The notes under the pieces: generated by a model
The model's input: only the letters and a program-made list of their open reading frames with translations
Told to the model about the DNA's origin: nothing
Database searches by the model: none
Source of the DNA: Escherichia phage forsur
Sequence record: MN850617.1
Reading direction: 5' to 3' (one strand)
DNA length: 42,476 nt
Shown: piece by piece, positions 1,891 to 33,199 of the stretch
Position numbering within the stretch: position 1 is the stretch's first letter
Layout: every line of letters begins with the position of its first letter
Made by a program: the position numbers and the translations under genes

Positions 1891-2124
1891 ATGAGCAGAT
1901 ACCAACGAGCCATTGAGGATACCGTGGTCGAGAAAGGTGTGTGCGGGGAGTGCCACGGCTGTGGCACATTCACCAGCATGACCATTCGACACGAGCTTGT
2001 CCAAACTGAATGTGAAGCCTGTGGTGGCACAGGCGTGACTGACCCGGCACTGCAACGTTCAGTGCTGCGGGAACAAGGTATGCGCTGCCAAGTGCAGCCG
2101 GGCTATGACCAACCAACGGAGTAA
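1891..2124 (+). CDS. DnaJ-type zinc-finger protein (77 aa)
   Basis: AGGAG 5 nt upstream of ATG 1891. Two CxxCxGxG motifs (CGECHGCG, CEACGGTG). Confidence 0.65.
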   Translation: MSRYQRAIEDTVVEKGVCGECHGCGTFTSMTIRHELVQTECEACGGTGVTDPALQRSVLREQGMRCQVQPGYDQPTE

Positions 2125-4559
2125 TGATGGACTTACTTGCTGAGCAGATTCGACTGGAAGAAGAAGCGCGAGCCAGACACCGCGAGGGCTGGCTGGATAA
2201 TATCAGAGAGGCGTTGGCCGCTGGCCGGGCTGGTTCAGTACCATTGCTCCAGCGTATGATGGTTGAGGCGTATCCTCAAGTTGAAGCTGCGATGCAAGAA
2301 CTCCTGAATGAAACTGCCCGTGGCTATGGTGCGCAGTACCGGACATACATGCGGGAGCTGGGGCCGCGAGCTTGTGCCTCACTCGCGTTGAGCATGGCTG
2401 TGTCCGGTGCCGCTGCTGAGCAAGCAGTGCTTAACTTGCTCAAGGACATGGGCAAGGCTCTCATGGCTGAGGTGGTGTACCTTCGGGCCAAGGCTGCCGG
2501 GCCTGTGCAGGCTGCGTACATGGCCAAGGTTAAGACTGACGTTAAGCGCTCTCGTTCCAAGTCAGCTAACCATGTGTATAACAAGGCGAAAGCGTCGGCG
2601 TCTAACGTTGGCGTTGAGCTGGATATCCTGCCACAGCGTGCGCTCATCACCATTGGTAAGATGATGATGAAGTGCATCGAGCCTACTGGTCTGCTGGTCA
2701 CTATGCGTGTCGGCGGCAACCACCGTCAGCGCGGCACCGCGCACTTCGCACTGCATGAAGATGTGCTGGCAACGATGAAAGATTGGATGGACTTGCCACG
2801 GGCAGACGGCCTGTGCTGTCCTCCAATGATTATCCCGCCAGCGCAGATTGCACGCGATGGTCGTAGTGGTATGTGGCACTCGCCGGGGCAGGCTGCCATG
2901 TACCGGGCAATCAGCCGCATGAACCACCGTGGCTACCGTGCGCTGGGTGTTGACCCACTGCCCATCATAGAGCCGTGTATGATGCTCAGCAGCGTTCCGT
3001 ACCGAGTTAACCCAATGGTATTGGAGTTCCTGAGAACGAACCGTACAGGCGTTATGGGGCTGCCTGTGCCGCCTCGTGAGCCTAAGCTCCCGTTCACCAT
3101 CCCGGCTGGTGTCAGCTTCGCTCAGTACATTAGCAAGTTCCCACCAGAAATGCAGCAGCAGATGGAGTCGGAAGCCCACGAGTACAAGGTGAAGACCCGT
3201 CTGTATTACAACGAGCTGCGCAAGTTCACGTCACAAATGCTGGCGCTGAACGGTGCAGTCAAAGAGGCCGAGCGCTATGCGCCATACGATAGGGTATATC
3301 TCCCGACTTACGCCGATACGCGGGGCCGAATTTATTATTCTTCGACCCTTAACCCTCAGTCCATCGACGCGGTGCGAGCGCTGCTCGAACTTGCTGAACC
3401 AGTGGCTCTCGGAGACGAGGGGCTGTTCTGGCTCAAGGTACATGTTGCGAATTGTTTTGGATACGACGCCACCGACTTCGACGACCGGGCGGCGTGGACG
3501 GACAAAACACTCCCCCGACTACGTGAGGCGTGCCGTCTTCCAGAGGCATTTGATTCGTTCTGGTCAGAAGCCGATAGCCCTATCTCAGCGTGGGCTGCTG
3601 CTGTTGAACTCATTCGAGCTATCGACTCAGGAAGTCCTGAGACTTATCCCTGCCGAGTGGTTACGCAGTGGGACGCTACATGTTCAGGACTCCAGCACCT
3701 CAGTGCGATGCTACGCGATGAGGTTGGAGGTGCTGCTGTCAATCTTGTCGATAGCGTGGGAAGAAAAGCAGACATATATCTTAAGACGGCAGCAGCGGCG
3801 ATGCAGGCTCTTGAAGAAAGTGAAGCGGCTGCGCCGACGACAATGGGTTCGTGGCTTGTTTCCATCGGCATTGTTCGGGCTATGGCCAAGAAGCCAGTGA
3901 TGACCTACGTGTACGGGGCAACCCGGCACGGCATGGTTGACTACTACTGCCTGTATCTGCGTGAGAACCGGGTCAAGCTGCCGGAGGGTAAGAGCCTGCT
4001 GGAGTGTGCTCAGTTCATTGCTGAGTTTATGTGGGCTGCTATCCCCCGCGTCGTGCCGAAAGCTGCCGAGCTGATGGCATGGTTGCAGGCTATCGCAGTA
4101 GAGGCTGCGAGCATGGGTGAGTACGTGGAGTTCACTGCGCCGTCCGGTCTTCGTGTGGTCAATCTGTATCAGGCCAGCAAAGAGATTGCGCTGAACAACA
4201 TCAACCTCATGGGTATCCACGGCATCAAGCTGCGCGAGTATCTGGATAAGCCAGATGGTCGCAAGTGTGCCGCTGCGATTGCTCCGAATTTTGTACACGC
4301 CATGGATGCCAGTCACATGATGAAGGTTCTGTGGGAGATGTGGAATAACGGGGTATACATGGTATCCATCCACGACTCGTTCGGTGTAGCGGCAGCCCAT
4401 GCTGGGTTACTGCACAAGGTCATCCGTGAAAAGTTTGTGCAGATGTATGAGGAATGTGACCCTATTCAGCAACTTGCGTCAGCATATAACCGTGAAGCTC
4501 CAGCTCGCGGTAATCTGGACATCCAGCTTGTGAAGAAATCAAGCAAGTTCTTCTGCTGA
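2124..4559 (+). CDS. T7-like single-subunit DNA-dependent RNA polymerase (811 aa)
   Basis: KKPVMTYVYGATRHG (motif B-like) and SIHDSFG (motif C catalytic Asp). Size and position (just before the structural genes) fit phiKMV-type phages. Confidence 0.95.
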   Translation: MMDLLAEQIRLEEEARARHREGWLDNIREALAAGRAGSVPLLQRMMVEAYPQVEAAMQELLNETARGYGAQYRTYMRELGPRACASLALSMAVSGAAAEQAVLNLLKDMGKALMAEVVYLRAKAAGPVQAAYMAKVKTDVKRSRSKSANHVYNKAKASASNVGVELDILPQRALITIGKMMMKCIEPTGLLVTMRVGGNHRQRGTAHFALHEDVLATMKDWMDLPRADGLCCPPMIIPPAQIARDGRSGMWHSPGQAAMYRAISRMNHRGYRALGVDPLPIIEPCMMLSSVPYRVNPMVLEFLRTNRTGVMGLPVPPREPKLPFTIPAGVSFAQYISKFPPEMQQQMESEAHEYKVKTRLYYNELRKFTSQMLALNGAVKEAERYAPYDRVYLPTYADTRGRIYYSSTLNPQSIDAVRALLELAEPVALGDEGLFWLKVHVANCFGYDATDFDDRAAWTDKTLPRLREACRLPEAFDSFWSEADSPISAWAAAVELIRAIDSGSPETYPCRVVTQWDATCSGLQHLSAMLRDEVGGAAVNLVDSVGRKADIYLKTAAAAMQALEESEAAAPTTMGSWLVSIGIVRAMAKKPVMTYVYGATRHGMVDYYCLYLRENRVKLPEGKSLLECAQFIAEFMWAAIPRVVPKAAELMAWLQAIAVEAASMGEYVEFTAPSGLRVVNLYQASKEIALNNINLMGIHGIKLREYLDKPDGRKCAAAIAPNFVHAMDASHMMKVLWEMWNNGVYMVSIHDSFGVAAAHAGLLHKVIREKFVQMYEECDPIQQLASAYNREAPARGNLDIQLVKKSSKFFC

Positions 4560-4584: not shown

Positions 4585-4607
4585 TTATGAAAGTGACTAT
4601 AGTGATA
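4585..4607 (+). promoter_or_regulatory. phage-RNAP promoter candidate P1 (TTATGAAAGTGACTATA|GTGATA)
   Basis: 23-nt motif with T7/SP6-like architecture (AT-rich -17..-13, CTATA at -5..-1, G at +1 = 4602). It lies in the gap after the RNAP gene at the head of the late operon. A perfect inverted copy is at 26463..26485 and near copies at 4852 and 33177. Confidence 0.6.
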
Positions 4608-7114: not shown

Positions 7115-8347
7115 ATGTCTGGTGAATACCAACCTACTGCCGCACCCGCTCCCCAAAACGTACCCGCTGGCCCGACCTATTCTCCCTCTGGTCACGGCGG
7201 TAATGATTATGGTGGAAGCCCACAGGTGGTACAGAACCCAGCGCTCGGACGCTTAGGCACGCCGATTGAACTGCCGCGAGGTGGTGCAACTCCGCAGCCG
7301 CAACAGCCGTTCGGTCAACAGCCGGGCCTGATTCCAAATCAGGAGTACAACCCGTATGCCCAACCGCAGCAGGGAAACCCAAGCCCTTACGCACCCGTAC
7401 CTCAGCAGAACCCGTATGGTGCTCCGCAACCGCAAAGCCCGTTTGCGGCACCACCTATTCCGATTAATGGGTATCCGCAACAGGGCTACACGCCTCCGGG
7501 CCAAGCGGCTCCGGCACAGCAGCCGGGCTTAGCACCGAACAACCCTGCGTATGGCTTCAACCCGTATGGGCAGCAGCCTCAGCAGCAGCAGCCGCAACAG
7601 CAGGCACCTCAGCAGCCGCAGCAGCCTTTCCAGCAGTTGCAGCCGCAGCCGGGCCAGCCGCCTCAGCAGTTCCAGAATCCGAACCTAACGGCAGAGAATC
7701 TGGCAAAGCAGGAAGGTGGACTGACCGCTGACCAAGTGGCTCAGATTTTCCCGGATGAAACCAGTCGTGCTGTGTTCCAAGGTATGGACACCATCGCCCG
7801 TGGCCAGAACATCGACCTGCTTGCAGCGTTCGGTTCTGCATACGAGCGTCGTGACCCTACTCTGGTGAATGAGCGCTATCTGGCGCAGTTCGACCCACAG
7901 ACTGTATCCATCCTCAAAGGTCAATTCGGCGCACTGGTTGCCGCTGGTCAGCAGCGCGATGCTGCAATCGAACAGCAGGTTTACCAGATGGCTGGTGGCC
8001 AAGAGCGTTGGGGTCTGGCAGTGCAGGCATTCAATACCGCTGCCGACAAAGGCACGATTGATGCTGTAGTAGCGGCTGTGAACTCCGGCGACCCTAATCA
8101 GGTACGTCTGGCAGTGAACACCATTCTCCAGTTTGCTGGTTCCCAAGGGAATATGATTCAGCGTTCTGGACAAAGTTTGACGCCTAATGGTGGCGGTCAA
8201 GCACCTCGTGACGTTATGACTAACGAGGCATTCCGTCAGCATCTTGGCTGGCTTGAGCAGGCGCATCCTGTTGGTTCCCCGGAATACAACAAGCATTACG
8301 CCGTACTGGTAGAGCAGCGCCGTCAGGCCAAAGCTCAAGGTTACTAA
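7115..8347 (+). CDS. scaffolding protein with a long N-terminal P/Q/N/Y-rich low-complexity region (410 aa)
   Basis: Lies between the portal and major capsid genes, as T7 gp9 does. The C-terminal half is helical and Ala/Gln-rich. Confidence 0.7.
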   Translation: MSGEYQPTAAPAPQNVPAGPTYSPSGHGGNDYGGSPQVVQNPALGRLGTPIELPRGGATPQPQQPFGQQPGLIPNQEYNPYAQPQQGNPSPYAPVPQQNPYGAPQPQSPFAAPPIPINGYPQQGYTPPGQAAPAQQPGLAPNNPAYGFNPYGQQPQQQQPQQQAPQQPQQPFQQLQPQPGQPPQQFQNPNLTAENLAKQEGGLTADQVAQIFPDETSRAVFQGMDTIARGQNIDLLAAFGSAYERRDPTLVNERYLAQFDPQTVSILKGQFGALVAAGQQRDAAIEQQVYQMAGGQERWGLAVQAFNTAADKGTIDAVVAAVNSGDPNQVRLAVNTILQFAGSQGNMIQRSGQSLTPNGGGQAPRDVMTNEAFRQHLGWLEQAHPVGSPEYNKHYAVLVEQRRQAKAQGY

Positions 8348-9371: not shown

Positions 9372-9400
9372 GAAGCCCTTCATTGAGGGGCTTCTATGAT
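9372..9400 (+). terminator. stem-loop terminator candidate after the capsid gene (T7 T-phi analogue by position)
   Basis: GAAGCCC-TTCATTGA-GGGGCTTC hairpin (9372..9394) followed by TATGAT, immediately after the capsid stop. Confidence 0.5.
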
Positions 9401-9427
9401 TATCGTTACTCACCCAAAGGAGGGTGC

Positions 9428-21542: not shown

Positions 21543-21848
21543 ATGGCATCCGTGAACAAGCAGCTCGACGGGCTGCACCGGATGCTGGTGGAGTATCTGT
21601 CCGACCGCTTGGCCGACGCACGTAGGAAAGATGAGAACGGTAATATCATCGAACCTATGGCGGCGGCTGAGCTGTCCGTGCTTCGCCAGTTCCTGAAAGA
21701 CAACGGCATTCAGGCTGATAAAGACCACGCTGACGACCTGCTCGCGCTGCAAGAACAGCTCAACAACGAGAAGACCGAGGCTGGCCGCAAGGATATCATG
21801 ACTGCTGCCATCAACTCAATCGCAGAAGATAGCGGGATGATGCACTAA
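21543..21848 (+). CDS. terminase small subunit (DNA maturase A-like, 101 aa)
   Basis: Small helical protein immediately upstream of, and coupled to, the large terminase, as T7 gp18 is. Confidence 0.68.
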   Translation: MASVNKQLDGLHRMLVEYLSDRLADARRKDENGNIIEPMAAAELSVLRQFLKDNGIQADKDHADDLLALQEQLNNEKTEAGRKDIMTAAINSIAEDSGMMH

Positions 21849-23608
21849 TGGATTTACAACGCCGCATGGTGATGGCAGGAATCGTTCGCGCTCACTACGA
21901 GAACAACTTCCCGCTGTTCCTGCACGACTACTTCGCATGGCTGGGCTTTGACCTCACTGAAATGCAGCTCGACATTGGCCGCTACATGGCCGACCGGACG
22001 CTCAAGAACAAGTGCGTCATGGCGCAGCGTGGTGAGGCTAAGTCCACCATCGGCATTGCTCGCGCTCTGTACGAATTTGTGCAGATGCCGAACGCTACTG
22101 TCCTGCTCGTATCCGGTTCCGACGACTATGCTGGTACGCTGTCGCACGCTATCGTGTCGGCTATCATGCAATGGGACAGGTTGGAATGGTTACGCCCGGA
22201 GACTCGCGCTGGCGCACGTACATCGTACACCGATGGCTTCGACGTGCATCACGCATTCCGTATCCCTGACAAACAACCCTCTGTAAAAGCGGTCGGTATC
22301 TTCGGCCAGTTACAGGGGAACCACGTATCGCTGTTGATTGCCGATGACGTGGAGACTACCAGTAACGGTAGCTCTCCTGCCAACCGCGCCCGTATCAACA
22401 CCCTGACCAAAGAGTTCGCGGCTATCGCCAACGATGGTGCAGAGATTCTGTACCTCGGCACGCCACAGACTCAGGACTCCATCTACAACACGCTCCCGCA
22501 GCGTGGCTTCGACGTTCGCATCTGGCCCGGTCGTTTCCCAACGGTTGAGGAAGAAGAACGCTATGGCGGTTGTCTGGCCCCATGGATTAAGCAGAAGATG
22601 GAGGGCCACCCGGAACTTCGCACAGGCTACGGTATCCTTGGAAACCGTGGTGCGCAGACCGACCCGCAACGCTACTCCGAAGAAAAGCAGTTGCAGAACG
22701 AACGAGACTACCAGCAGGCAGGCTTCCAGTTGCAGTTCATGCTGGACACTTCTCTGTCGGATGCTCTCAAACAGACCTTGCATCTCAAGGACTTAATCTT
22801 CTTCCACGGCTCGCCTATCTCCGCGCCGGAAGTCTTGCATTGGTCGAATCACCCACGGCACGCCGCCGAGCTGCCACTGGATTTCCCACTCGCTCGTGCG
22901 CAGCTATTCTTGGCTGCTGATTTCTCGGACACTTATGTACCATTCGAAAATGCCTCGGCGTTTCTTGACCCTGCTGGTGGTGGGTCGGATGAATCAGTTA
23001 TCATCGTCACCGCTTCTATCGGCCCGTTTATCCACGTCCTTGGTATGCACGTCTACCACGGCGGCCAGACGGAGGAAAACATCCAGACGGCGGTGGCGTG
23101 GCTAGGTGAGCTGGGCTGCAAACGTCTCGTCATTGAGGACAACATGGGCCACGGCACCGTGACCAACATGTACCGAGGTGAGATTAAGCGGCAGAAGCTG
23201 ACCATGGGCTGCGAGGGTGTATACTCGTCCGGCCAGAAAGAGGTGCGTATCATCAACCGCCTCGGCCCAATCATGCAGCGCCACCGTGTGGTTATCCACT
23301 GGAGCGTTGTTGAAGAAGACCTGCGGTTATGCCGGGGTATGGCCAACGGTGGCCGTGAGTACAGCCTGTTCTGGCAGCTCCAGAACCTGACTCAAGACCG
23401 TCAATCCATCCCGCATGATGACCGAATTGAAACCTTAGCCGCTGCCGTGTACCTCCACGCCGAGGTGTTGCAGCAAGACGAAAACGAAGAAGCGGAGCGC
23501 CGTGCAGTCGCTGTGGCCAAAGAGTTCATCGCTAACCCTATGGGGTATGATGACCCGAAATGGCGCAGCCACAAGCCTGTACGCGGTACGCGACGGAGAA
23601 TTAGATAA
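21848..23608 (+). CDS. terminase large subunit (DNA maturase B, T7 gp19-like, 586 aa)
   Basis: Same length as T7 gp19. Walker A-like QRGEAKST and Walker B-like LLIADDVE, followed by a C-terminal nuclease-type region. Confidence 0.92.
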   Translation: MDLQRRMVMAGIVRAHYENNFPLFLHDYFAWLGFDLTEMQLDIGRYMADRTLKNKCVMAQRGEAKSTIGIARALYEFVQMPNATVLLVSGSDDYAGTLSHAIVSAIMQWDRLEWLRPETRAGARTSYTDGFDVHHAFRIPDKQPSVKAVGIFGQLQGNHVSLLIADDVETTSNGSSPANRARINTLTKEFAAIANDGAEILYLGTPQTQDSIYNTLPQRGFDVRIWPGRFPTVEEEERYGGCLAPWIKQKMEGHPELRTGYGILGNRGAQTDPQRYSEEKQLQNERDYQQAGFQLQFMLDTSLSDALKQTLHLKDLIFFHGSPISAPEVLHWSNHPRHAAELPLDFPLARAQLFLAADFSDTYVPFENASAFLDPAGGGSDESVIIVTASIGPFIHVLGMHVYHGGQTEENIQTAVAWLGELGCKRLVIEDNMGHGTVTNMYRGEIKRQKLTMGCEGVYSSGQKEVRIINRLGPIMQRHRVVIHWSVVEEDLRLCRGMANGGREYSLFWQLQNLTQDRQSIPHDDRIETLAAAVYLHAEVLQQDENEEAERRAVAVAKEFIANPMGYDDPKWRSHKPVRGTRRRIR

Positions 23609-24983: not shown

Positions 24984-25335
24984 CATCCACTCGCGTATGG
25001 GCGCTGTGGAGGCTCGTATGCAATCCGTAGAAACACGCCTCGACAAACACGAGATTCAAATCGCCAACCTTGAGAAAGGTGACGCTGCTATGCTGGCCAA
25101 GCTATCGGAGAACGACTCCCGGTGGCTGGAGATTCAGCAGCAGCTCCGTGTCGTCGAGCAAATTCAGGACATTCAAAAGACTATGAGCCACATCGGTAAG
25201 CTGTTCTCTTACGCGGCTCACGCCGTCAAGTGGTGTCTCCTGACCGCTTCACTCGTTAGCGGTATCTATCTTGCGGTCAAGGCTGGCGACCTAACGGCGC
25301 TCCAGTCCTTTATCACAACGATTATGGGGATGTAA
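24952..25335 (+). CDS. membrane protein, holin candidate (127 aa; N-terminal coiled coil, single C-terminal TMD)
   Basis: GAAGGTGAAAG upstream of ATG 24952. TMD VKWCLLTASLVSGIYLAV. Lies immediately upstream of the endolysin and coupled to it (ATGTAATG). Confidence 0.45.
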   Translation: MTEAKKEPAPNIHSRMGAVEARMQSVETRLDKHEIQIANLEKGDAAMLAKLSENDSRWLEIQQQLRVVEQIQDIQKTMSHIGKLFSYAAHAVKWCLLTASLVSGIYLAVKAGDLTALQSFITTIMGM

Positions 25336-25871
25336 TGACTAACTTTGAAATCTGTATGAAGTTCACCGGGCTGGCCGAGGGTGGATACACCAAGCTGCCC
25401 GGTGACACTGGAGGGGAAACCAACCATGGAATTAGTGACGCTCGTGATGGGAAGCTGGATGGCAGAGCTTGTGGTGTCCCTACTGGGCTTGGCGGCACTG
25501 TGTGCGTGCCTATCAAAGACCTCACCAAAGAGCAAGCCGAGGCAATCTATCGCCGGGACTACTACAGCCCCATCAGAGGTGACGAGCTTCACCCTGCGAT
25601 TGCATGTGCCGTGTTTGATTACGGCGTCAACTCCGGCATCTCCCGTGCTGCTAAAGCTCTACAGCGGGTATGCGGCGTTGCACAGGACGGGGACATTGGT
25701 ACTGTCACCTTGGAAGCAGCACAACGTCTGGAACCTCACGCCGCAGCAGCAGCCATCTGTGACCTTCGTATTGCGTTCCTAAAGGCTTCTAAAGCCCCGA
25801 CAGTCGTTCGGTATAGGGATGCCTTGGTTGCTCGTGCAAAACGCTGTAGCGCTTACTGTGCGACGCTGTAG
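25335..25871 (+). CDS. endolysin, GH108-type muramidase with a PG_binding_3-like C-terminal domain (178 aa)
   Basis: N-terminal GLAEGGYTKLPGDTGGETNHGIS (the EGGY..D.GG.T..GI signature) and a later QDGDIGTVTLEAA motif. No signal or SAR segment. Confidence 0.85.
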   Translation: MTNFEICMKFTGLAEGGYTKLPGDTGGETNHGISDARDGKLDGRACGVPTGLGGTVCVPIKDLTKEQAEAIYRRDYYSPIRGDELHPAIACAVFDYGVNSGISRAAKALQRVCGVAQDGDIGTVTLEAAQRLEPHAAAAAICDLRIAFLKASKAPTVVRYRDALVARAKRCSAYCATL

Positions 25872-25900
25872 GGGCATCTGAAAGCTGACACATTGAACAG

Positions 25901-25930
25901 GCCGTGGGTGCAATACCCCGGCTTGAAAAT
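25901..25930 (+). terminator. stem-loop after the last late gene (weak terminator candidate)
   Basis: GCCGtGGG-TGCAATA-CCCCGGC (25901..25922) followed by TTGAAAATTG. Confidence 0.35.
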
Positions 25931-25939
25931 TGAACGTTT

Positions 25940-26455
25940 ATGCGTGGGCCTCCCTCGACCCGAATGACCGCGCGTACCCCCATGACGTGTGCGCGGATTA
26001 GCCTCGCGACGTGCGCGATATTGCTCGCGTGCGCTGCGCGGCGCGTCAAGAGGATTGCCTGCGTGCGGTATAGCTCGTGCGTGTCGCGTTTCATCGTCTG
26101 CCGTGTGGCGTGCTGTGCGCTGTCCTGCTGGCTGTGCTGTGCGGTGCTGTCCTATGGGGACGCTCTGCGCTGGCTGTGCTGTGCTGCGTGCTGCGCTCGG
26201 TCGGGCGGGTATCTGTCTCTTTTGCCGTGGTACGCTCTGCGCCGTGGTGGTGCTGTGTGGTGGTGGTGCTGCCGTGGTGCTGTCCTGTCTGCTGGTCTAC
26301 TGTCTGCGCCGCCAGCTCTGCGCGTCATGCTCTGCTACCTGCTGCTACTGTCCTACTGCGTTCACTGGCTGCCGCCTGTCATCCTGTCGGATTCCATCCG
26401 TTGCCGTTCCGCGCTCGCTTGTTTCGGCTGCGCCGCGCTCGCTCTGCGTATCTAG
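25940..26455. repeat. GC-rich, A-depleted (+ strand) low-complexity tract with short degenerate direct repeats; probable location of the collapsed terminal repeat / concatemer junction
   Basis: By hand count there are about 15 A in 26101..26450, with A-free runs of 53, 50 and 66 nt. Recurring GCTGTGCTGTGC, GGTGCTGTCCTG, GCCGTGGT and CGCTCTGCGC units. Confidence 0.7.
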
Positions 26456-26462
26456 CGATACA

Positions 26463-26485
26463 TATCACTATAGTCACTTTCATAA
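26463..26485 (-). promoter_or_regulatory. phage-RNAP promoter candidate P3, inverted (leftward) perfect copy of P1
   Basis: The reverse complement of 26463..26485 equals TTATGAAAGTGACTATAGTGATA, identical to 4585..4607. Predicted +1 is the G complementary to 26468, transcribing toward 25940. Confidence 0.5.
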
Positions 26486-26622
26486 TTATCTATTGATATC
26501 AGTAACTTATAACCTATCTGATAACGGTATCTATCCTATGCAATAACCTATTCAATCAAATATTTATTCCTAATGATTACAGTAACTTATCCACTATTTG
26601 AGCTATTCAGTGAAAATAAATC

Positions 26623-26651
26623 TTGCAATGCTGTTTGTGATTTGCTGTAAT
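26623..26651 (+). promoter_or_regulatory. sigma70 early promoter candidate PE0
   Basis: TTGCAA (26623-26628), 17-nt spacer, extended -10 TGcTGTAAT (TGTAAT at 26646-26651). Confidence 0.55.
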
Positions 26652-26726
26652 TCTCATCGCCGGGTAGCAGAACATCGCTACACGGTGGCAAGACGGTAAC
26701 ACTGCTCTTTAACAATCTGGAGTGTA

Positions 26727-26755
26727 TTGACAAGGCAAGCTCACTATGCTGTAAT
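26727..26755 (+). promoter_or_regulatory. sigma70 early promoter PE1
   Basis: Consensus TTGACA (26727-26732), 17-nt spacer, extended -10 TGcTGTAAT (26750-26755). Confidence 0.8.
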
Positions 26756-26863
26756 GCTTCCAGTCAGCCAGACAAGCCAAACAGTCATGGATAAAGACGT
26801 TAAAACCCGCGCAGGCTAACTGGTACGGATTATTCATCTCAGAATGGGCGCTGAATAAAACGG

Positions 26864-26892
26864 TTGACAGGATGAAACGAGTATGCTGTAAT
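26864..26892 (+). promoter_or_regulatory. sigma70 early promoter PE2
   Basis: TTGACA (26864-26869), 17-nt spacer, TGcTGTAAT (26887-26892). Confidence 0.8.
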
Positions 26893-26944
26893 ACGCTCCA
26901 GATTGACAGGGCAAGCAAGCCTGACAGTCAGTAGTAAAAAGTAG

Positions 26945-26973
26945 TTGACAAGCTGAATACACTGTGTTGTAAT
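26945..26973 (+). promoter_or_regulatory. sigma70 early promoter PE3
   Basis: TTGACA (26945-26950), 17-nt spacer, TGtTGTAAT (26968-26973). Confidence 0.8.
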
Positions 26974-27451
26974 CAGCACCGAGTTGGAAGGATGCAAAAC
27001 ATCCTGCTCTGAGTGAACGCAAACTGGCCGCGTAGTGTCACGGCTCACTGGGTATCCGCCGCAGGTTGGAACTGGGTGAGGCATCGCCGAAAGGCAACGG
27101 TATCGCAACAATGCTAACGCCGTAGGGGTAGCGCCTGATGCAAGGTAACGGAGAAGCGCGATAGACGCAGCGCAGTATCAGTACAATACCAAACGTCTTA
27201 TAAGGCGCGGAGTATAGCGGGTAGGTAGTCAAACGGCTTGTTAGCTGGCAACGGTGAGCAAGATACGCGACGGACTGCTGGAAGACTCCTGAGAGTGGAT
27301 GCAGACAATATCCACAGCGCGAAATGGGCGGGGCGATTTTTCAGGGTAGTGAATCCGACAAGCCAATCAATGCCACTGAGTGCAGACTGTACGGCGCGTC
27401 ACAATGGGTTCACTATCCACCTGAAAATAGCCAACAACTGGAGAAATAACT

Positions 27452-27844
27452 ATGTACCGTATCTATGCAAGCGCATATCGTCAGAACAACGCTGAGTGTG
27501 TTAATCTGGCGCTTCATTGCAAGGCACTGCGAACGGTGCAGGATATGTTCGGAGTGATTCCGGTCACACTGACAGGCAAGTTCGACAATGCGTATGAGTT
27601 AAGCATGGTCTTTCCTGTCGATGGAATCTACGAAATCAGACAGGCTGTTAAGCTGTTCTGTAAAGCCTTTGAACAGGACTGCATCATGGTAGTGACCGAT
27701 GACAATGATGCAATCTTCATGGATTCACCATATCCGGGCAAGCCTGCTGGCAAGTTTGTCAGCAAGACAGAAGCGGAGATGGAAGCCGGGCAGTTCACTG
27801 CTTGGACTTACGATGGTGAGCAATTTTGGGTAGTGGAGGCGTAA
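27452..27844 (+). CDS. first early protein, T3 gp0.3-like SAM hydrolase/lyase candidate (130 aa)
   Basis: GGAG upstream. Block resemblance to T3 SAMase as I recall it (ASAYRQNNAECVNL.. vs VSAFRSNLCDEVNM..; FCKAFEQDCIMVV vs ACNEWEQDCVLVY). Occupies the first early gene position. Confidence 0.5.
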   Translation: MYRIYASAYRQNNAECVNLALHCKALRTVQDMFGVIPVTLTGKFDNAYELSMVFPVDGIYEIRQAVKLFCKAFEQDCIMVVTDDNDAIFMDSPYPGKPAGKFVSKTEAEMEAGQFTAWTYDGEQFWVVEA

Positions 27845-33142: not shown

Positions 33143-33176
33143 CCATCTACTCATGCCAGTTATTATTTAGCTGGCA

Positions 33177-33199
33177 TTATGAAGGTGACTATATTGGAC
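33177..33199 (+). promoter_or_regulatory. phage-RNAP promoter candidate P4 (TTATGAAGGTGACTATA|TTGGAC)
   Basis: 16 of 17 identity to P1 over -17..-1. Intergenic, at the head of the replication module. Directly preceded by the hairpin ATGCCAG-(11 nt)-CTGGCAT (33153..33177). Confidence 0.55.

What the first reader, a model, noticed from the sequence alone, without database searches (positions are those of the whole stretch)
26211..26224. T7 class-II pause/termination-like signal inside the A-depleted tract
Seen in sequence: ATCTGTCTCTTTTG is one of the few A-containing islands within the A-free blocks.

Established knowledge: T7 RNAP class-II signals (the PTH terminator and the CJ site in the T7 terminal repeat) share ATCTGTT followed by a T-run. 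Pausing at CJ is linked to concatemer processing.

Inference: here 6 of 7 core positions match and a T4 run follows, in the orientation met by rightward late transcription. This looks like a CJ analogue and supports placing the concatemer junction here.
Basis: partly seen in the sequence, partly recalled or inferred. Interest (0 to 1): 0.5.

Follow-up and report, generated by a model that had tools for sequence, protein, structure and literature searches.

The report
Conserved pause-like signal beside phage terminal repeat
A 15-base sequence in the non-coding junction of this T7-family phage genome is conserved in all its relatives and sits just to the right of the terminal repeat, as the RNA-polymerase pause site of T7, T3 and SP6 does. 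It is therefore most likely this phage group's version of that known packaging signal, not something new.

Summary
The sequence is real: ATCTGTCTCTTTTG is at 26211-26224. The window is a circularly permuted Bonnellvirus genome (T7-type RNA polymerase, all genes on +).

Genome-wide, the heptamer is no commoner than chance. The extended motif TATCT[G/A]TCT[C/T]TTTT[G/C] is different:
- It is unique in the genome.
- It is the second most conserved 15-mer of the junction across 17 relatives, although the tract is only about 51% identical to the J8-65 clade.
- It is non-coding and has no hairpin.

In J8-65, the only relative with a terminal repeat (DTR) in its record (259 bp), the motif starts 12 nt after the repeat's right end. 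In T7, T3 and SP6, ATCTGTT lies exactly at that boundary. SP6's junction (GGGCTATCTGTTCGTTTGC) resembles this one (GGGTATCTGTCTCTTTTGC). The predicted DTR in the window is 25956 to about 26197.

Strict membership of the T7 class II signals fails. Position 7 is C, and more distant relatives have ATCTATC or ATCAATC, changes reported to abolish termination by T7 RNAP. Pausing by the phage's own RNAP is untested.

Verdict: a concatemer-junction signal of the known T7/SP6 kind in a lineage where I found no description of it.

Unexpected extra: an exact phage-promoter copy on the minus strand (26463-26485) points left at the motif. It co-varies with each relative's own promoters.

The parts
26210..26224 (+). 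Junction motif TATCTGTCTCTTTTG. It has a CJ-like core TATCTGTC (7 of 8 matches to TATCTGT(T/A)) followed by a pyrimidine/T-run. It is the finding itself plus one base on the 5' side.
   Evidence: Sequence read. Unique in the genome. Present in all 16 Bonnellvirus records and in IMG/VR locus L019 as TATCT[G/A]TCT[C/T]TTTT[G/C]. Second most conserved 15-mer of the junction. The most pyrimidine-rich 15-mer of the tract starts at 26212 (13 of 15); the motif window itself has 12 of 15, which puts it in the top 0.5% of the genome. No significant hairpin.
26198..26209 (+). G-rich spacer (cggtcgggcggg) between the predicted right end of the terminal repeat and the motif.
   Evidence: A G-rich run precedes the motif in all Bonnellvirus sequences and in LIMEzero. 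In J8-65 the matching 11 nt, GGGCGCGGGGC, lie between the repeat end (259) and the motif (271). SP6 has GGGCGTGGGC before TATCTGTT.
25956..26197 (.). Predicted direct terminal repeat, present as one collapsed copy in this permuted assembly. The left genome end is predicted at TCGACCCGAA. The right boundary is uncertain by about 15 nt.
   Evidence: Homology to the J8-65 repeat 1-259, which starts TCGACCCGAAGG and ends ...ATCGGTGGCT. The left-end block CTCCCTCGACCCGAA is among the most conserved in the junction. It is shared with LIMEzero, L022 and L023.
25917..25932 (+). Invariant 16-mer CCCGGCTTGAAAATTG, 24 nt left of the predicted left genome end. Candidate packaging or cutting box of the junction.
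   Evidence: The most conserved 15-mer in the alignment (1.0 identity). Unique in the genome. Similar A/T boxes lie within about 30 nt upstream of the left end in KP34, phiKMV and SP6.
26225..26445 (+). A-poor (5% A), highly variable spacer between the motif and the leftward promoter.
   Evidence: Composition. Many indels whose lengths are not multiples of three (gap length mod 3: 99 with remainder 1, 14 with remainder 2, 22 with remainder 0), so the tract is non-coding.
26463..26485 (-). Leftward phage-RNAP promoter copy TTATGAAAGTGACTATAGTGATA. The predicted start is near 26468, pointing at the motif (244 nt away) and the repeat.
   Evidence: Identical over 23 nt to the promoter-like site just after the RNAP gene. 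It co-varies with each phage's own promoters in Kc261, J8-65 and LIMEzero. It was the only minus-strand copy found in these genomes.
4585..4607 (+). Rightward phage promoter-like site after the RNAP gene. It is the reference copy and a likely source of late transcription that can reach the junction in concatemers.
   Evidence: Its position matches LIMEzero's annotated phage promoter after the RNAP gene.
33177..33199 (+). Second rightward phage promoter-like site (ATGAAGGTGACTATATTGGAC). It follows a hairpin and lies upstream of the replication genes.
   Evidence: It parallels LIMEzero's annotated terminator-plus-promoter pair at 7255-7313.
2124..4559 (+). Single-subunit T7-family RNA polymerase gene (811 aa). 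This enzyme is the proposed reader of the signal.
   Evidence: PF00940, E = 7.7e-84. T7 RNAP structures match at E = 5e-57 over the catalytic domain; the N-terminal domain is barely alignable.
21543..23608 (+). T7-type small (21543..21848) and large (21848..23608) terminase genes. Their products are the proposed partners in junction cutting.
   Evidence: PF11123 DNA_Packaging_2 and PF22530 Terminase-T7_RNaseH-like.

Best explanation
The motif is this phage group's concatemer-junction (CJ) signal.

Proposed mechanism (inferred, not shown):
1. In replicating concatemers, one copy of the terminal repeat (about 25956-26197) joins successive genomes.
2. The phage's T7-type RNA polymerase transcribes rightward out of the last late gene and through the repeat.
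3. It then meets G-rich run + TATCTGTC + TCTTTT on the non-template strand.
4. It pauses, and partly terminates, a few bases downstream in the U-run, where the RNA:DNA hybrid is pyrimidine-rich and weak.
5. As proposed for T7, the stalled polymerase marks the right edge of the repeat for the T7-type terminase, so cutting and repeat duplication start there.
6. A secondary effect would be to limit late read-through into the early region.

Shown: the sequence, its uniqueness, its conservation, its position relative to a DTR carried in a relative's record, the same position in T7, T3 and SP6, and the presence of T7-type RNAP and terminase genes.
For: 1. The window is a Bonnellvirus (Autographiviridae) genome with all genes on the + strand. 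The motif lies in the 1.58-kb non-coding gap between the last late gene (endolysin, ends 25871) and the early genes.
2. J8-65 has a 259-bp DTR, and the homologous motif TATCTATCTTTTTTC is at 271-285.
3. ATCTGTT is at T7 161-167 (directly after the 160-bp repeat, whose length I take from memory), at T3 232-238 (after the 231-bp repeat) and at SP6 174-180 (across the 174-bp repeat boundary).
4. SP6 gggcgtgggcTATCTGTTCGTTTGC resembles window gtcgggcgggTATCTGTCTCTTTTGC.
5. The motif is conserved in 17 of 17 Bonnellvirus sequences, although identity to the J8-65 clade over the tract is only about 51% with many indels.
6. The TCTCTTTT[G/C] part persists in more distant Stentvirinae. L022 has it twice in tandem, and LIMEzero has CTCTTTTC.
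7. It is unique in the genome, as I recall the CJ site being in T7 (not checked here).
8. It has no hairpin, so it is not a class I terminator. No intrinsic-terminator-like site lies upstream that would stop late transcripts first.
9. T7-family RNAP, gp18-like TerS and gp19-like TerL are encoded.
10. Literature: TATCTGTT is a T7 RNAP pause site. [quoted passage not shown]
11. Chance placement of TATCTGT within about 20 nt of the boundary: 0.75%.
Against: - No pausing or termination data exist for any Bonnellvirus RNAP.
- The T7 heptamer is reported to tolerate no substitutions, yet position 7 is C here, position 5 is A in the J8-65 clade, and only 4 of 7 positions match in L022 (ATCAATC). What is conserved subfamily-wide is the pyrimidine/T-run, not the T7 core.
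- KP34 and phiKMV, in the same family, have pyrimidine-rich elements but no ATCTGT at their repeat boundary.
- In J8-65 the repeat ends 11 nt before the motif rather than abutting it. How its ends were mapped is not described.
- The RNAP N-terminal domain, which in T7 is implicated in class II recognition, is barely alignable.
- The endolysin is GH108, not a T7-lysozyme-type amidase. The T7 polymerase-lysozyme partnership is therefore not evident, though other ORFs were not screened.
- Conservation alone fits a DNA-level terminase site equally well.
Confidence: 0.55

Rival explanations
1. The motif is a DNA-level recognition or cutting site for the terminase (TerS/TerL) or a nicking activity. 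It defines the right boundary of the terminal repeat, and RNA polymerase pausing plays no part.
For: - It lies 11-12 nt from the right end of the repeat in the J8-65 record.
- The other strongly conserved blocks of the junction are also boundary-associated: the left end CTCCCTCGACCCGAA and the box CCGGCTTGAAAATTG.
- KP34 and phiKMV keep a pyrimidine-rich element directly at their repeat boundary without any ATCTGT core. That fits a cutting or fill-in signal that differs by lineage.
- T7-type terminase genes are present.
Against: - My recollection is that genetics in T7 tie recognition of this boundary sequence by RNAP to concatemer processing. [quoted passage not shown]
- The similarity to the RNAP pause octamer (7 of 8), the strand, and the downstream T-run are features of a transcription signal. 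A terminase site does not require them.
- The two ideas are not exclusive.
Confidence: 0.22
2. The motif works with the leftward promoter at 26463-26485. The leftward transcript has little U and is purine-rich. It would form a stable RNA:DNA hybrid over the A-poor spacer and stop or be processed at the polypurine stretch GCAAAAGAGACAGA, which is the complement of the motif. That would leave a primer for leftward DNA synthesis through the terminal repeat, for repeat duplication or as a replication origin.
For: - An exact 23-nt copy of the phage promoter lies on the minus strand 244 nt to the right of the motif.
- It co-varies with each phage's own promoters in four genomes and was the only minus-strand copy found.
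- The spacer top strand is 5% A and 64% pyrimidine, so the leftward RNA would be about 64% purine and 5% U.
[quoted passage not shown] KP34 has a copy of a sequence that also follows its RNAP gene, about 260 nt from the repeat.
- From memory, phiOL is a secondary replication origin in T7.
Against: - The promoter copies at this location in T7, T3 and KP34 point rightward, so the leftward arrangement has no tested precedent.
- An A-run in the RNA is not a known stop signal for T7-type polymerases. The T-run orientation fits rightward termination.
- No RNA 3' ends or RNA-DNA junctions are known here.
- Promoter activity is inferred from sequence only.
Confidence: 0.12
3. The motif is a plain transcription terminator or insulator. 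It stops late read-through from entering the early region on concatemers and has no role in DNA maturation.
For: - The T-run follows a pyrimidine-rich stretch.
- No other terminator-like site lies between the last late gene and the early promoters.
- L022 carries two tandem copies 26 nt apart, start to start, as engineered tandem terminators do.
Against: - It has no hairpin.
- It is not reused at other ends of transcription units in the genome.
- Its fixed position next to the repeat boundary in J8-65, and the parallel in T7, T3 and SP6, point to a junction-specific role.
Confidence: 0.08
4. It is a chance resemblance in a low-complexity tract, kept only by recent common ancestry.
For: - The heptamer is no more frequent than expected genome-wide.
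- Most available relatives are closely related.
Against: - The motif is retained in the J8-65 clade at about 51% tract identity, and partly in L022 and LIMEzero, while the flanks carry many indels.
- It ranks 2 of 418 windows for conservation.
- Positional chance is 0.75%.
Confidence: 0.03

Closest known systems
T7/T3 concatemer-junction (CJ) class II pause site, TATCTGTT
   Same: - It lies on the non-template strand of rightward transcription, just right of the terminal repeat: T7 161-167 and T3 232-238. Here it lies 11-12 nt right of the predicted repeat end.
- I recall it being single-copy in T7 (not checked here); here the motif is single-copy.
- TATCTGT is identical.
- It is preceded by T, and no hairpin is involved.
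- The phage encodes a T7-family RNAP and gp18/gp19-type terminase.
   Different: - The last core base is C rather than T, and other members of the subfamily have ATCTATC or ATCAATC. Such substitutions are reported to abolish termination by T7 RNAP.
- It is followed by a T-run, which T7 and T3 CJ lack.
- An 11-nt G-rich spacer separates it from the repeat end.
- The RNAP N-terminal domain is very divergent, and no T7-lysozyme-type amidase was seen.
- No biochemical data exist.
SP6 junction element (GGGCTATCTGTTCGTTTGC at the 174-bp repeat boundary)
   Same: It is the closest sequence match: a G-rich run, TATCTGT, a pyrimidine, then TTT(T)GC. The promoter style is also similar. My recollection of the SP6 promoter is ATTTAGGTGACACTATAG; here it is TTATGAAAGTGACTATAG.
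   Different: - SP6 keeps the canonical heptamer, and the repeat boundary falls inside it.
- SP6 belongs to a different lineage (Molineuxvirinae). Newer records place Bonnellvirus in Autoscriptoviridae/Stentvirinae.
[quoted passage not shown]
   Same: A sequence-specific, hairpin-independent signal made of the core plus a downstream U-run. In those signals the U-run is reported to facilitate termination, and termination occurs 6-8 nt after the core. Applied here, that would place RNA 3' ends in or just after TCTTTTG.
   Different: Those signals are accidental sequences in non-phage DNA, and they carry the exact heptamer. This one is a natural, conserved phage element with a variant core.
Repeat-boundary elements of KP34 (TGCCTTGCTTATTTTGCG) and phiKMV (CCTTGCCTCT, with related copies)
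   Same: They are in the same family. A pyrimidine-rich element, with a T-run in KP34, lies directly right of the repeat and is preceded by a G-rich run. The repeat regions are also A-poor.
   Different: They have no ATCTGT core. In these phages the elements have no described function that I could find.
T7/T3 phiOL promoter (phage promoter just right of the terminal repeat)
   Same: A phage-RNAP promoter lies roughly 140-270 nt to the right of the repeat: T7 at 405, T3 at 366-388 and a promoter-like copy in KP34 at about 477. Here it is at 26463-26485.
   Different: Here, and in Kc261, J8-65 and LIMEzero, it is on the opposite strand, pointing left toward the repeat.

Membership tests
T7 RNAP class II (sequence-specific) pause/termination signal | Exact 7-bp core ATCTGTT in the non-template strand. 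Any substitution is reported to abolish termination by T7 RNAP. | tested here: not met
   The window has ATCTGTC. The J8-65 clade has ATCTATC, L022 has ATCAATC and LIMEzero has ACTCTACC. The strictness of the core is stated in the papers read.
T7 RNAP class II (sequence-specific) pause/termination signal | The core is immediately preceded by A, C or T. | tested here: met
   T at 26210, invariant in all 17 aligned sequences. The rule is stated.
T7 RNAP class II (sequence-specific) pause/termination signal | It acts without an RNA hairpin. | tested here: met
   Folds of the upstream 47-96 nt in five phages give z-scores from -1.27 to +0.94. No conserved stem abuts the T-run. No intrinsic-terminator-like site was found.
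T7 RNAP class II (sequence-specific) pause/termination signal | A downstream U-run that facilitates termination. | tested here: met
   TCTCTTTTG directly follows the core. J8-65 has T6. The T-run is kept in L022 and LIMEzero.
T7 RNAP class II (sequence-specific) pause/termination signal | The cognate single-subunit RNAP pauses or terminates 6-8 nt downstream. | not testable with these tools
   This needs in vitro transcription or in vivo 3'-end mapping. What can be shown is that the phage encodes a T7-family RNAP.
Concatemer-junction (CJ) signal of T7-like phages | [quoted passage not shown] | tested here: met
   J8-65 has repeat 1-259 and motif 271-285, and the motif is absent from the right-end copy. 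The motif is unique in the window. The window's own ends are inferred by homology, not measured.
Concatemer-junction (CJ) signal of T7-like phages | It matches the octamer TATCTGT(T/A), which I recall being reported as conserved at the junction of T7-like phages (Zhang and Studier 2004; that paper could not be read here). | tested here: inconclusive
   7 of 8 positions match in the window and most relatives (TATCTGTC), and 6 of 8 in the J8-65 clade (TATCTATC). TATCTGTT as a pause site is confirmed.
Concatemer-junction (CJ) signal of T7-like phages | It is required for concatemer processing and packaging, through RNAP-terminase interplay. | not testable with these tools
   Homologues of T7 gp18 and gp19 are present. 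The T7 mechanism is quoted. No genetics exist for this phage.
Class I (intrinsic, hairpin plus U-run) terminator | A stable G+C-rich stem-loop directly followed by a U-run. | tested here: not met
Protein-coding sequence (relatives annotate ORFs across this tract) | Reading frame preserved among relatives. | tested here: not met
   Indel lengths mod 3 are 99 with remainder 1, 14 with remainder 2 and 22 with remainder 0. The long ORFs arise because an A-poor strand has almost no stop codons.

The most novel reading that the evidence does not exclude
The junction may be a two-sided transcription module not described for T7-like phages. On one side is a rightward pause/termination signal at the right edge of the terminal repeat. 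On the other is a conserved, co-evolving leftward phage promoter 244 nt away. Between them lies an A-free spacer.

In this reading, the leftward RNA (little U, purine-rich) stays hybridised to the pyrimidine-rich top strand. It ends at the polypurine complement of the motif. It then primes leftward DNA synthesis through the repeat. Repeat duplication, or origin firing, would then be RNA-primed, and the motif would work in both orientations.
Probability: 0.1. Interest if true: 0.7.

Novelty: new member of a known kind. Interest (0 to 1): 0.38.

Why it matters
1. It locates the physical genome ends for a whole genus. Only J8-65's record carries the terminal repeat; the other Bonnellvirus records examined start at other, mutually inconsistent points, and the one other complete record checked (Kc261) has no repeat. 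The predicted repeat here is 25956 to about 26197. It also explains why several deposited 'hypothetical proteins' over this tract are probably artefacts.
2. It extends the T7/SP6 junction signal into the phiKMV-type lineage with a naturally varied core (TATCTGTC, TATCTATC, ATCAATC). That gives a ready-made series for asking what single-subunit RNA polymerases really recognise at class II sites. It could also yield compact terminators for non-T7 phage polymerases.
3. The leftward promoter next to the signal suggests that transcription from both sides takes part in end formation or replication. This can be tested.

Tried and rejected
- Genome-wide enrichment of the heptamer: none. The argument therefore rests on position and conservation.
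- Class I terminator: no hairpin and no terminator-like site.
- Known RNA family: no Rfam match at E <= 1 in 25800-27500.
- Coding sequence: rejected because of frame-breaking indels.
- Sigma-70 promoter overlapping the motif, as reported for T7 CJ: a TGgTACGCT lies downstream in the window, but that segment is not conserved.
- Phage promoter at the conserved box CCGGCTTGAAAATTG: no other copy in the genome.
- LIMEzero's annotated promoter consensus has no match in the window. The window's own promoter was found instead from the homologous position.
- More diverse relatives: IMG/VR gave only five loci.
- Papers not held: the LIMEzero paper and Zhang and Studier 2004. The J8-65 paper does not say how the ends were mapped.
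- A leftward promoter copy near the phiKMV junction: not found with a crude scan.
- One broad literature search returned only RNA polymerase II papers.

Full report
**What the window is.**
BLAST of 25400-27400 finds 19 phage records. Those whose taxonomy was retrieved and classified to genus are Bonnellvirus (Autographiviridae; newer records say Autoscriptoviridae/Stentvirinae), at 86-96% identity. The gene order matches J8-65 and Kc261, with all genes on the + strand.
- The RNA polymerase is 2124..4559 (PF00940; T7 RNAP structures at E = 5e-57 over the catalytic domain, with the N-terminal domain barely alignable).
- TerS and TerL are T7 gp18/gp19 types.
- The last late gene is a GH108 endolysin, 25335..25871. 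The first early gene (SAMase-like) starts at 27452.
- The finding therefore lies in a 1.58-kb non-coding gap of a circularly permuted assembly.
- The window length, 42,476 bp, equals that listed for Escherichia phage forsur in the paper that described these phages. I infer identity but did not verify it.

**The observation.**
ATCTGTCTCTTTTG is at 26211-26224. The tract is strongly A-poor, with 15 A's in 26085-26445. A26211 is one of four A's invariant across 17 aligned relatives.
- The heptamers are not enriched genome-wide: ATCTGTC 5 against 5.75 expected, and ATCTGTT 4 against 4.3.
- The 14-mer TATCTRTCTYTTTT has no other match with 2 or fewer mismatches.
- The most pyrimidine-rich 15-mer of the tract starts at 26212 (13 of 15). 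The motif window itself (12 of 15) is in the top 0.5% of the genome.

**Conservation.**
All 16 Bonnellvirus records and IMG/VR locus L019 carry TATCT[G/A]TCT[C/T]TTTT[G/C] at the homologous place.
- The window's tract is about 51% identical (gaps counted) to the J8-65, Lidtsur and smaasur clade. It has many indels, mostly not multiples of three (99, 14 and 22 for remainders 1, 2 and 0). It is therefore non-coding, and the ORFs annotated over it in several records are probably artefacts of a stop-free composition.
- In a sliding 15-nt scan, the motif block ranks second of 418. It comes after the box CCGGCTTGAAAATTG and next to the left-end block CTCCCTCGACCCGAA.
- Further out, L022 (endolysin 78% identical) has gtcgTATCAATCTCTTTTGc and a second copy, TCAATCTCTTTTGc, starting 26 nt further on. 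LIMEzero has gggggcTACTCTACCTCTTTTCg.
- So the G-rich run and the pyrimidine/T-run are conserved across the subfamily. The T7-like core is conserved only within the genus.

**Position relative to the genome ends.**
J8-65 is the only relative whose record carries a terminal repeat. It is 259 bp, confirmed as prefix = suffix.
- The repeat starts at TCGACCCGAAGG, which corresponds to window 25956.
- It ends ...ATCGGTGGCT. Then come 11 G-rich bases and TATCTATCTTTTTTC at 271-285.
- By alignment, the window's repeat is 25956 to about 26197, and the motif begins 12-13 nt later.
- In T7, ATCTGTT is at 161-167, directly after the repeat (160 bp, from memory). In T3 it is at 232-238, after the annotated 231-bp repeat. 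In SP6 it is at 174-180, across the 174-bp boundary.
- SP6's gggcgtgggcTATCTGTTCGTTTGC is notably like the window's gtcgggcgggTATCTGTCTCTTTTGC.
- Shuffling the tract puts TATCTGT within about 20 nt of the boundary in 0.75% of trials.
- KP34 (216-bp repeat) and phiKMV (414 bp) also have a G-rich run followed by a pyrimidine-rich element at the boundary, but no ATCTGT.

**What is known.**
- The class II core is described as strictly conserved. It must be preceded by A, C or T, and any change abolishes termination by T7 RNAP. Termination occurs 6-8 nt downstream, and a U-run helps.
- TATCTGTT is used as a pause site.
- From memory (Zhang and Studier 2004; not readable here), the junction consensus of T7-like phages is TATCTGT(T/A).

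**Interpretation.**
The motif meets the positional, strand, no-hairpin, preceding-base and U-run features of a CJ-type class II signal. No terminator-like site lies upstream that would stop late transcripts first.
- It fails the strict heptamer test, so it should not be filed as a T7-RNAP class II site. T7 RNAP would probably ignore it.
- The best reading is a lineage-specific version of the junction pause/termination signal, read by the phage's own polymerase (confidence about 0.55).
- The main rival is a DNA-level terminase or nicking site (about 0.22). The two readings are not exclusive.

**An unexpected neighbour.**
While looking for phage promoters, I found TTATGAAAGTGACTATAGTGATA after the RNAP gene (4585-4607, +) and a related site at 33177-33199 (+). 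An exact 23-nt copy lies on the minus strand at 26463-26485.
- The junction copy tracks each phage's own promoter sequence: Kc261 has GCTACTATAG, J8-65 has GTAACTGTAG and LIMEzero has GGCAAGCACTAAGG. It was the only minus-strand copy found.
- It would start transcription near 26468, heading left across the A-poor spacer, the motif and the repeat. The RNA would be about 5% U and 64% purine.
- T7 and T3 have phiOL at a comparable distance from the repeat, pointing right. KP34 has, about 260 nt right of its repeat and on the + strand, a copy of a sequence that also follows its RNAP gene.
- This opens a less conventional reading: RNA-primed repeat duplication, or an origin. I rate it at about 0.1.

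**Verdict.**
Canonical class II membership is not met. The function remains untested. This is a new member of a known kind of signal, of moderate interest. Its most useful by-products are the predicted genome ends and the leftward promoter.

Noticed in passing
window 26463-26485 (-); also 4585-4607 (+) and 33177-33199 (+): An exact 23-nt copy of the phage-RNAP promoter-like sequence lies on the minus strand at the right edge of the A-poor tract, pointing left at the motif and the repeat. It co-varies with each phage's own promoters in Kc261, J8-65 and LIMEzero, and it was the only minus-strand copy found in genomes whose genes are all on +. The corresponding sites in T7 and T3 (phiOL) and a promoter-like copy in KP34 point right.
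   Followed up: partly
window 25917-25932: The invariant 16-mer CCCGGCTTGAAAATTG lies 24 nt left of the predicted left genome end. It is unique in the genome. Similar A/T boxes lie within about 30 nt upstream of the left end in KP34 (CCTGAAATTTATT), phiKMV (CCAATTTTGATAT) and SP6 (CAAAATTTTGATAT). It may be a packaging or cutting box.
   Followed up: partly
window 26704-26720: The 17-mer GCTCTTTAACAATCTGG looks like a boxA (antitermination) element, going by my recollection of the rrn boxA sequence. It lies among the early sigma-70 promoters. The identical 17-mer is in T7 at 813-829, downstream of promoter A3.
   Followed up: partly
window 26623, 26727, 26864, 26945 (+): Four early host-type promoters of the form TTG(A/C)(C/A)A-N17-TGTAAT, most preceded by TGC, recall T7's A1-A3. 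The simple scan missed them because the -10 element has G at position 2.
   Followed up: no
window 26200-26540: TATCT occurs five times on the + strand here (26210, 26449, 26487, 26515, 26528), the densest cluster in the genome. Genome-wide, TATCT shows a strong strand bias: 57 on + against 12 on -. The cluster may be a repeat array like those I recall flanking the T7 terminal repeat.
   Followed up: no
window 26490-26521 and 26570-26601: Two 32-nt direct repeats (CTAWTGATWWCAGTAACTTAT..., 78% identical) lie 80 nt apart in the AT-rich block between the leftward promoter and the early promoters (family D5). This could be an origin or a protein-binding array.
   Followed up: no
L022 about 3412-3460 (IMGVR_UViG_2228664000_000004): This more distant relative carries the motif twice in tandem, TATCAATCTCTTTTG and TCAATCTCTTTTG. 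By the shared TCTCTTTTGC core, the copies start 26 nt apart.
   Followed up: partly
L031 (metagenome contig Ga0172378_10199202, 1589 bp): This Bonnellvirus-like contig ends at ...ggtcgggcgggT, one base into the motif. That is where the repeat ends in T7 and T3 (CCCT|ATCTGTT). It may reflect a physical DNA end, or it may be chance.
   Followed up: no
window 25940-26546 and homologous tracts in relatives: Several deposited genomes annotate 'hypothetical proteins' across the A-poor tract on either strand: ROV85_21 to 23, an HHU8 CDS, glasur_55, Lidtsur gp55 and a Kc261 CDS. The composition removes stop codons, and the indels break the frame, so these are probably not genes.
   Followed up: partly
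whole window: The window length of 42,476 bp equals that listed for Escherichia phage forsur (MN850617) in Olsen et al. 2020. No 100% match appeared in the phage collection searched.
   Followed up: no
window 9372-9405 and 33144-33172: Hairpins followed by TATGATTATCG or TATGAAGG lie after the capsid gene and before the replication genes. They parallel LIMEzero's annotated terminators, which are followed by TTTGATTATG or TTTATTAT. They may be class I terminators of the phage RNAP that lack a classical T-run.
   Followed up: no
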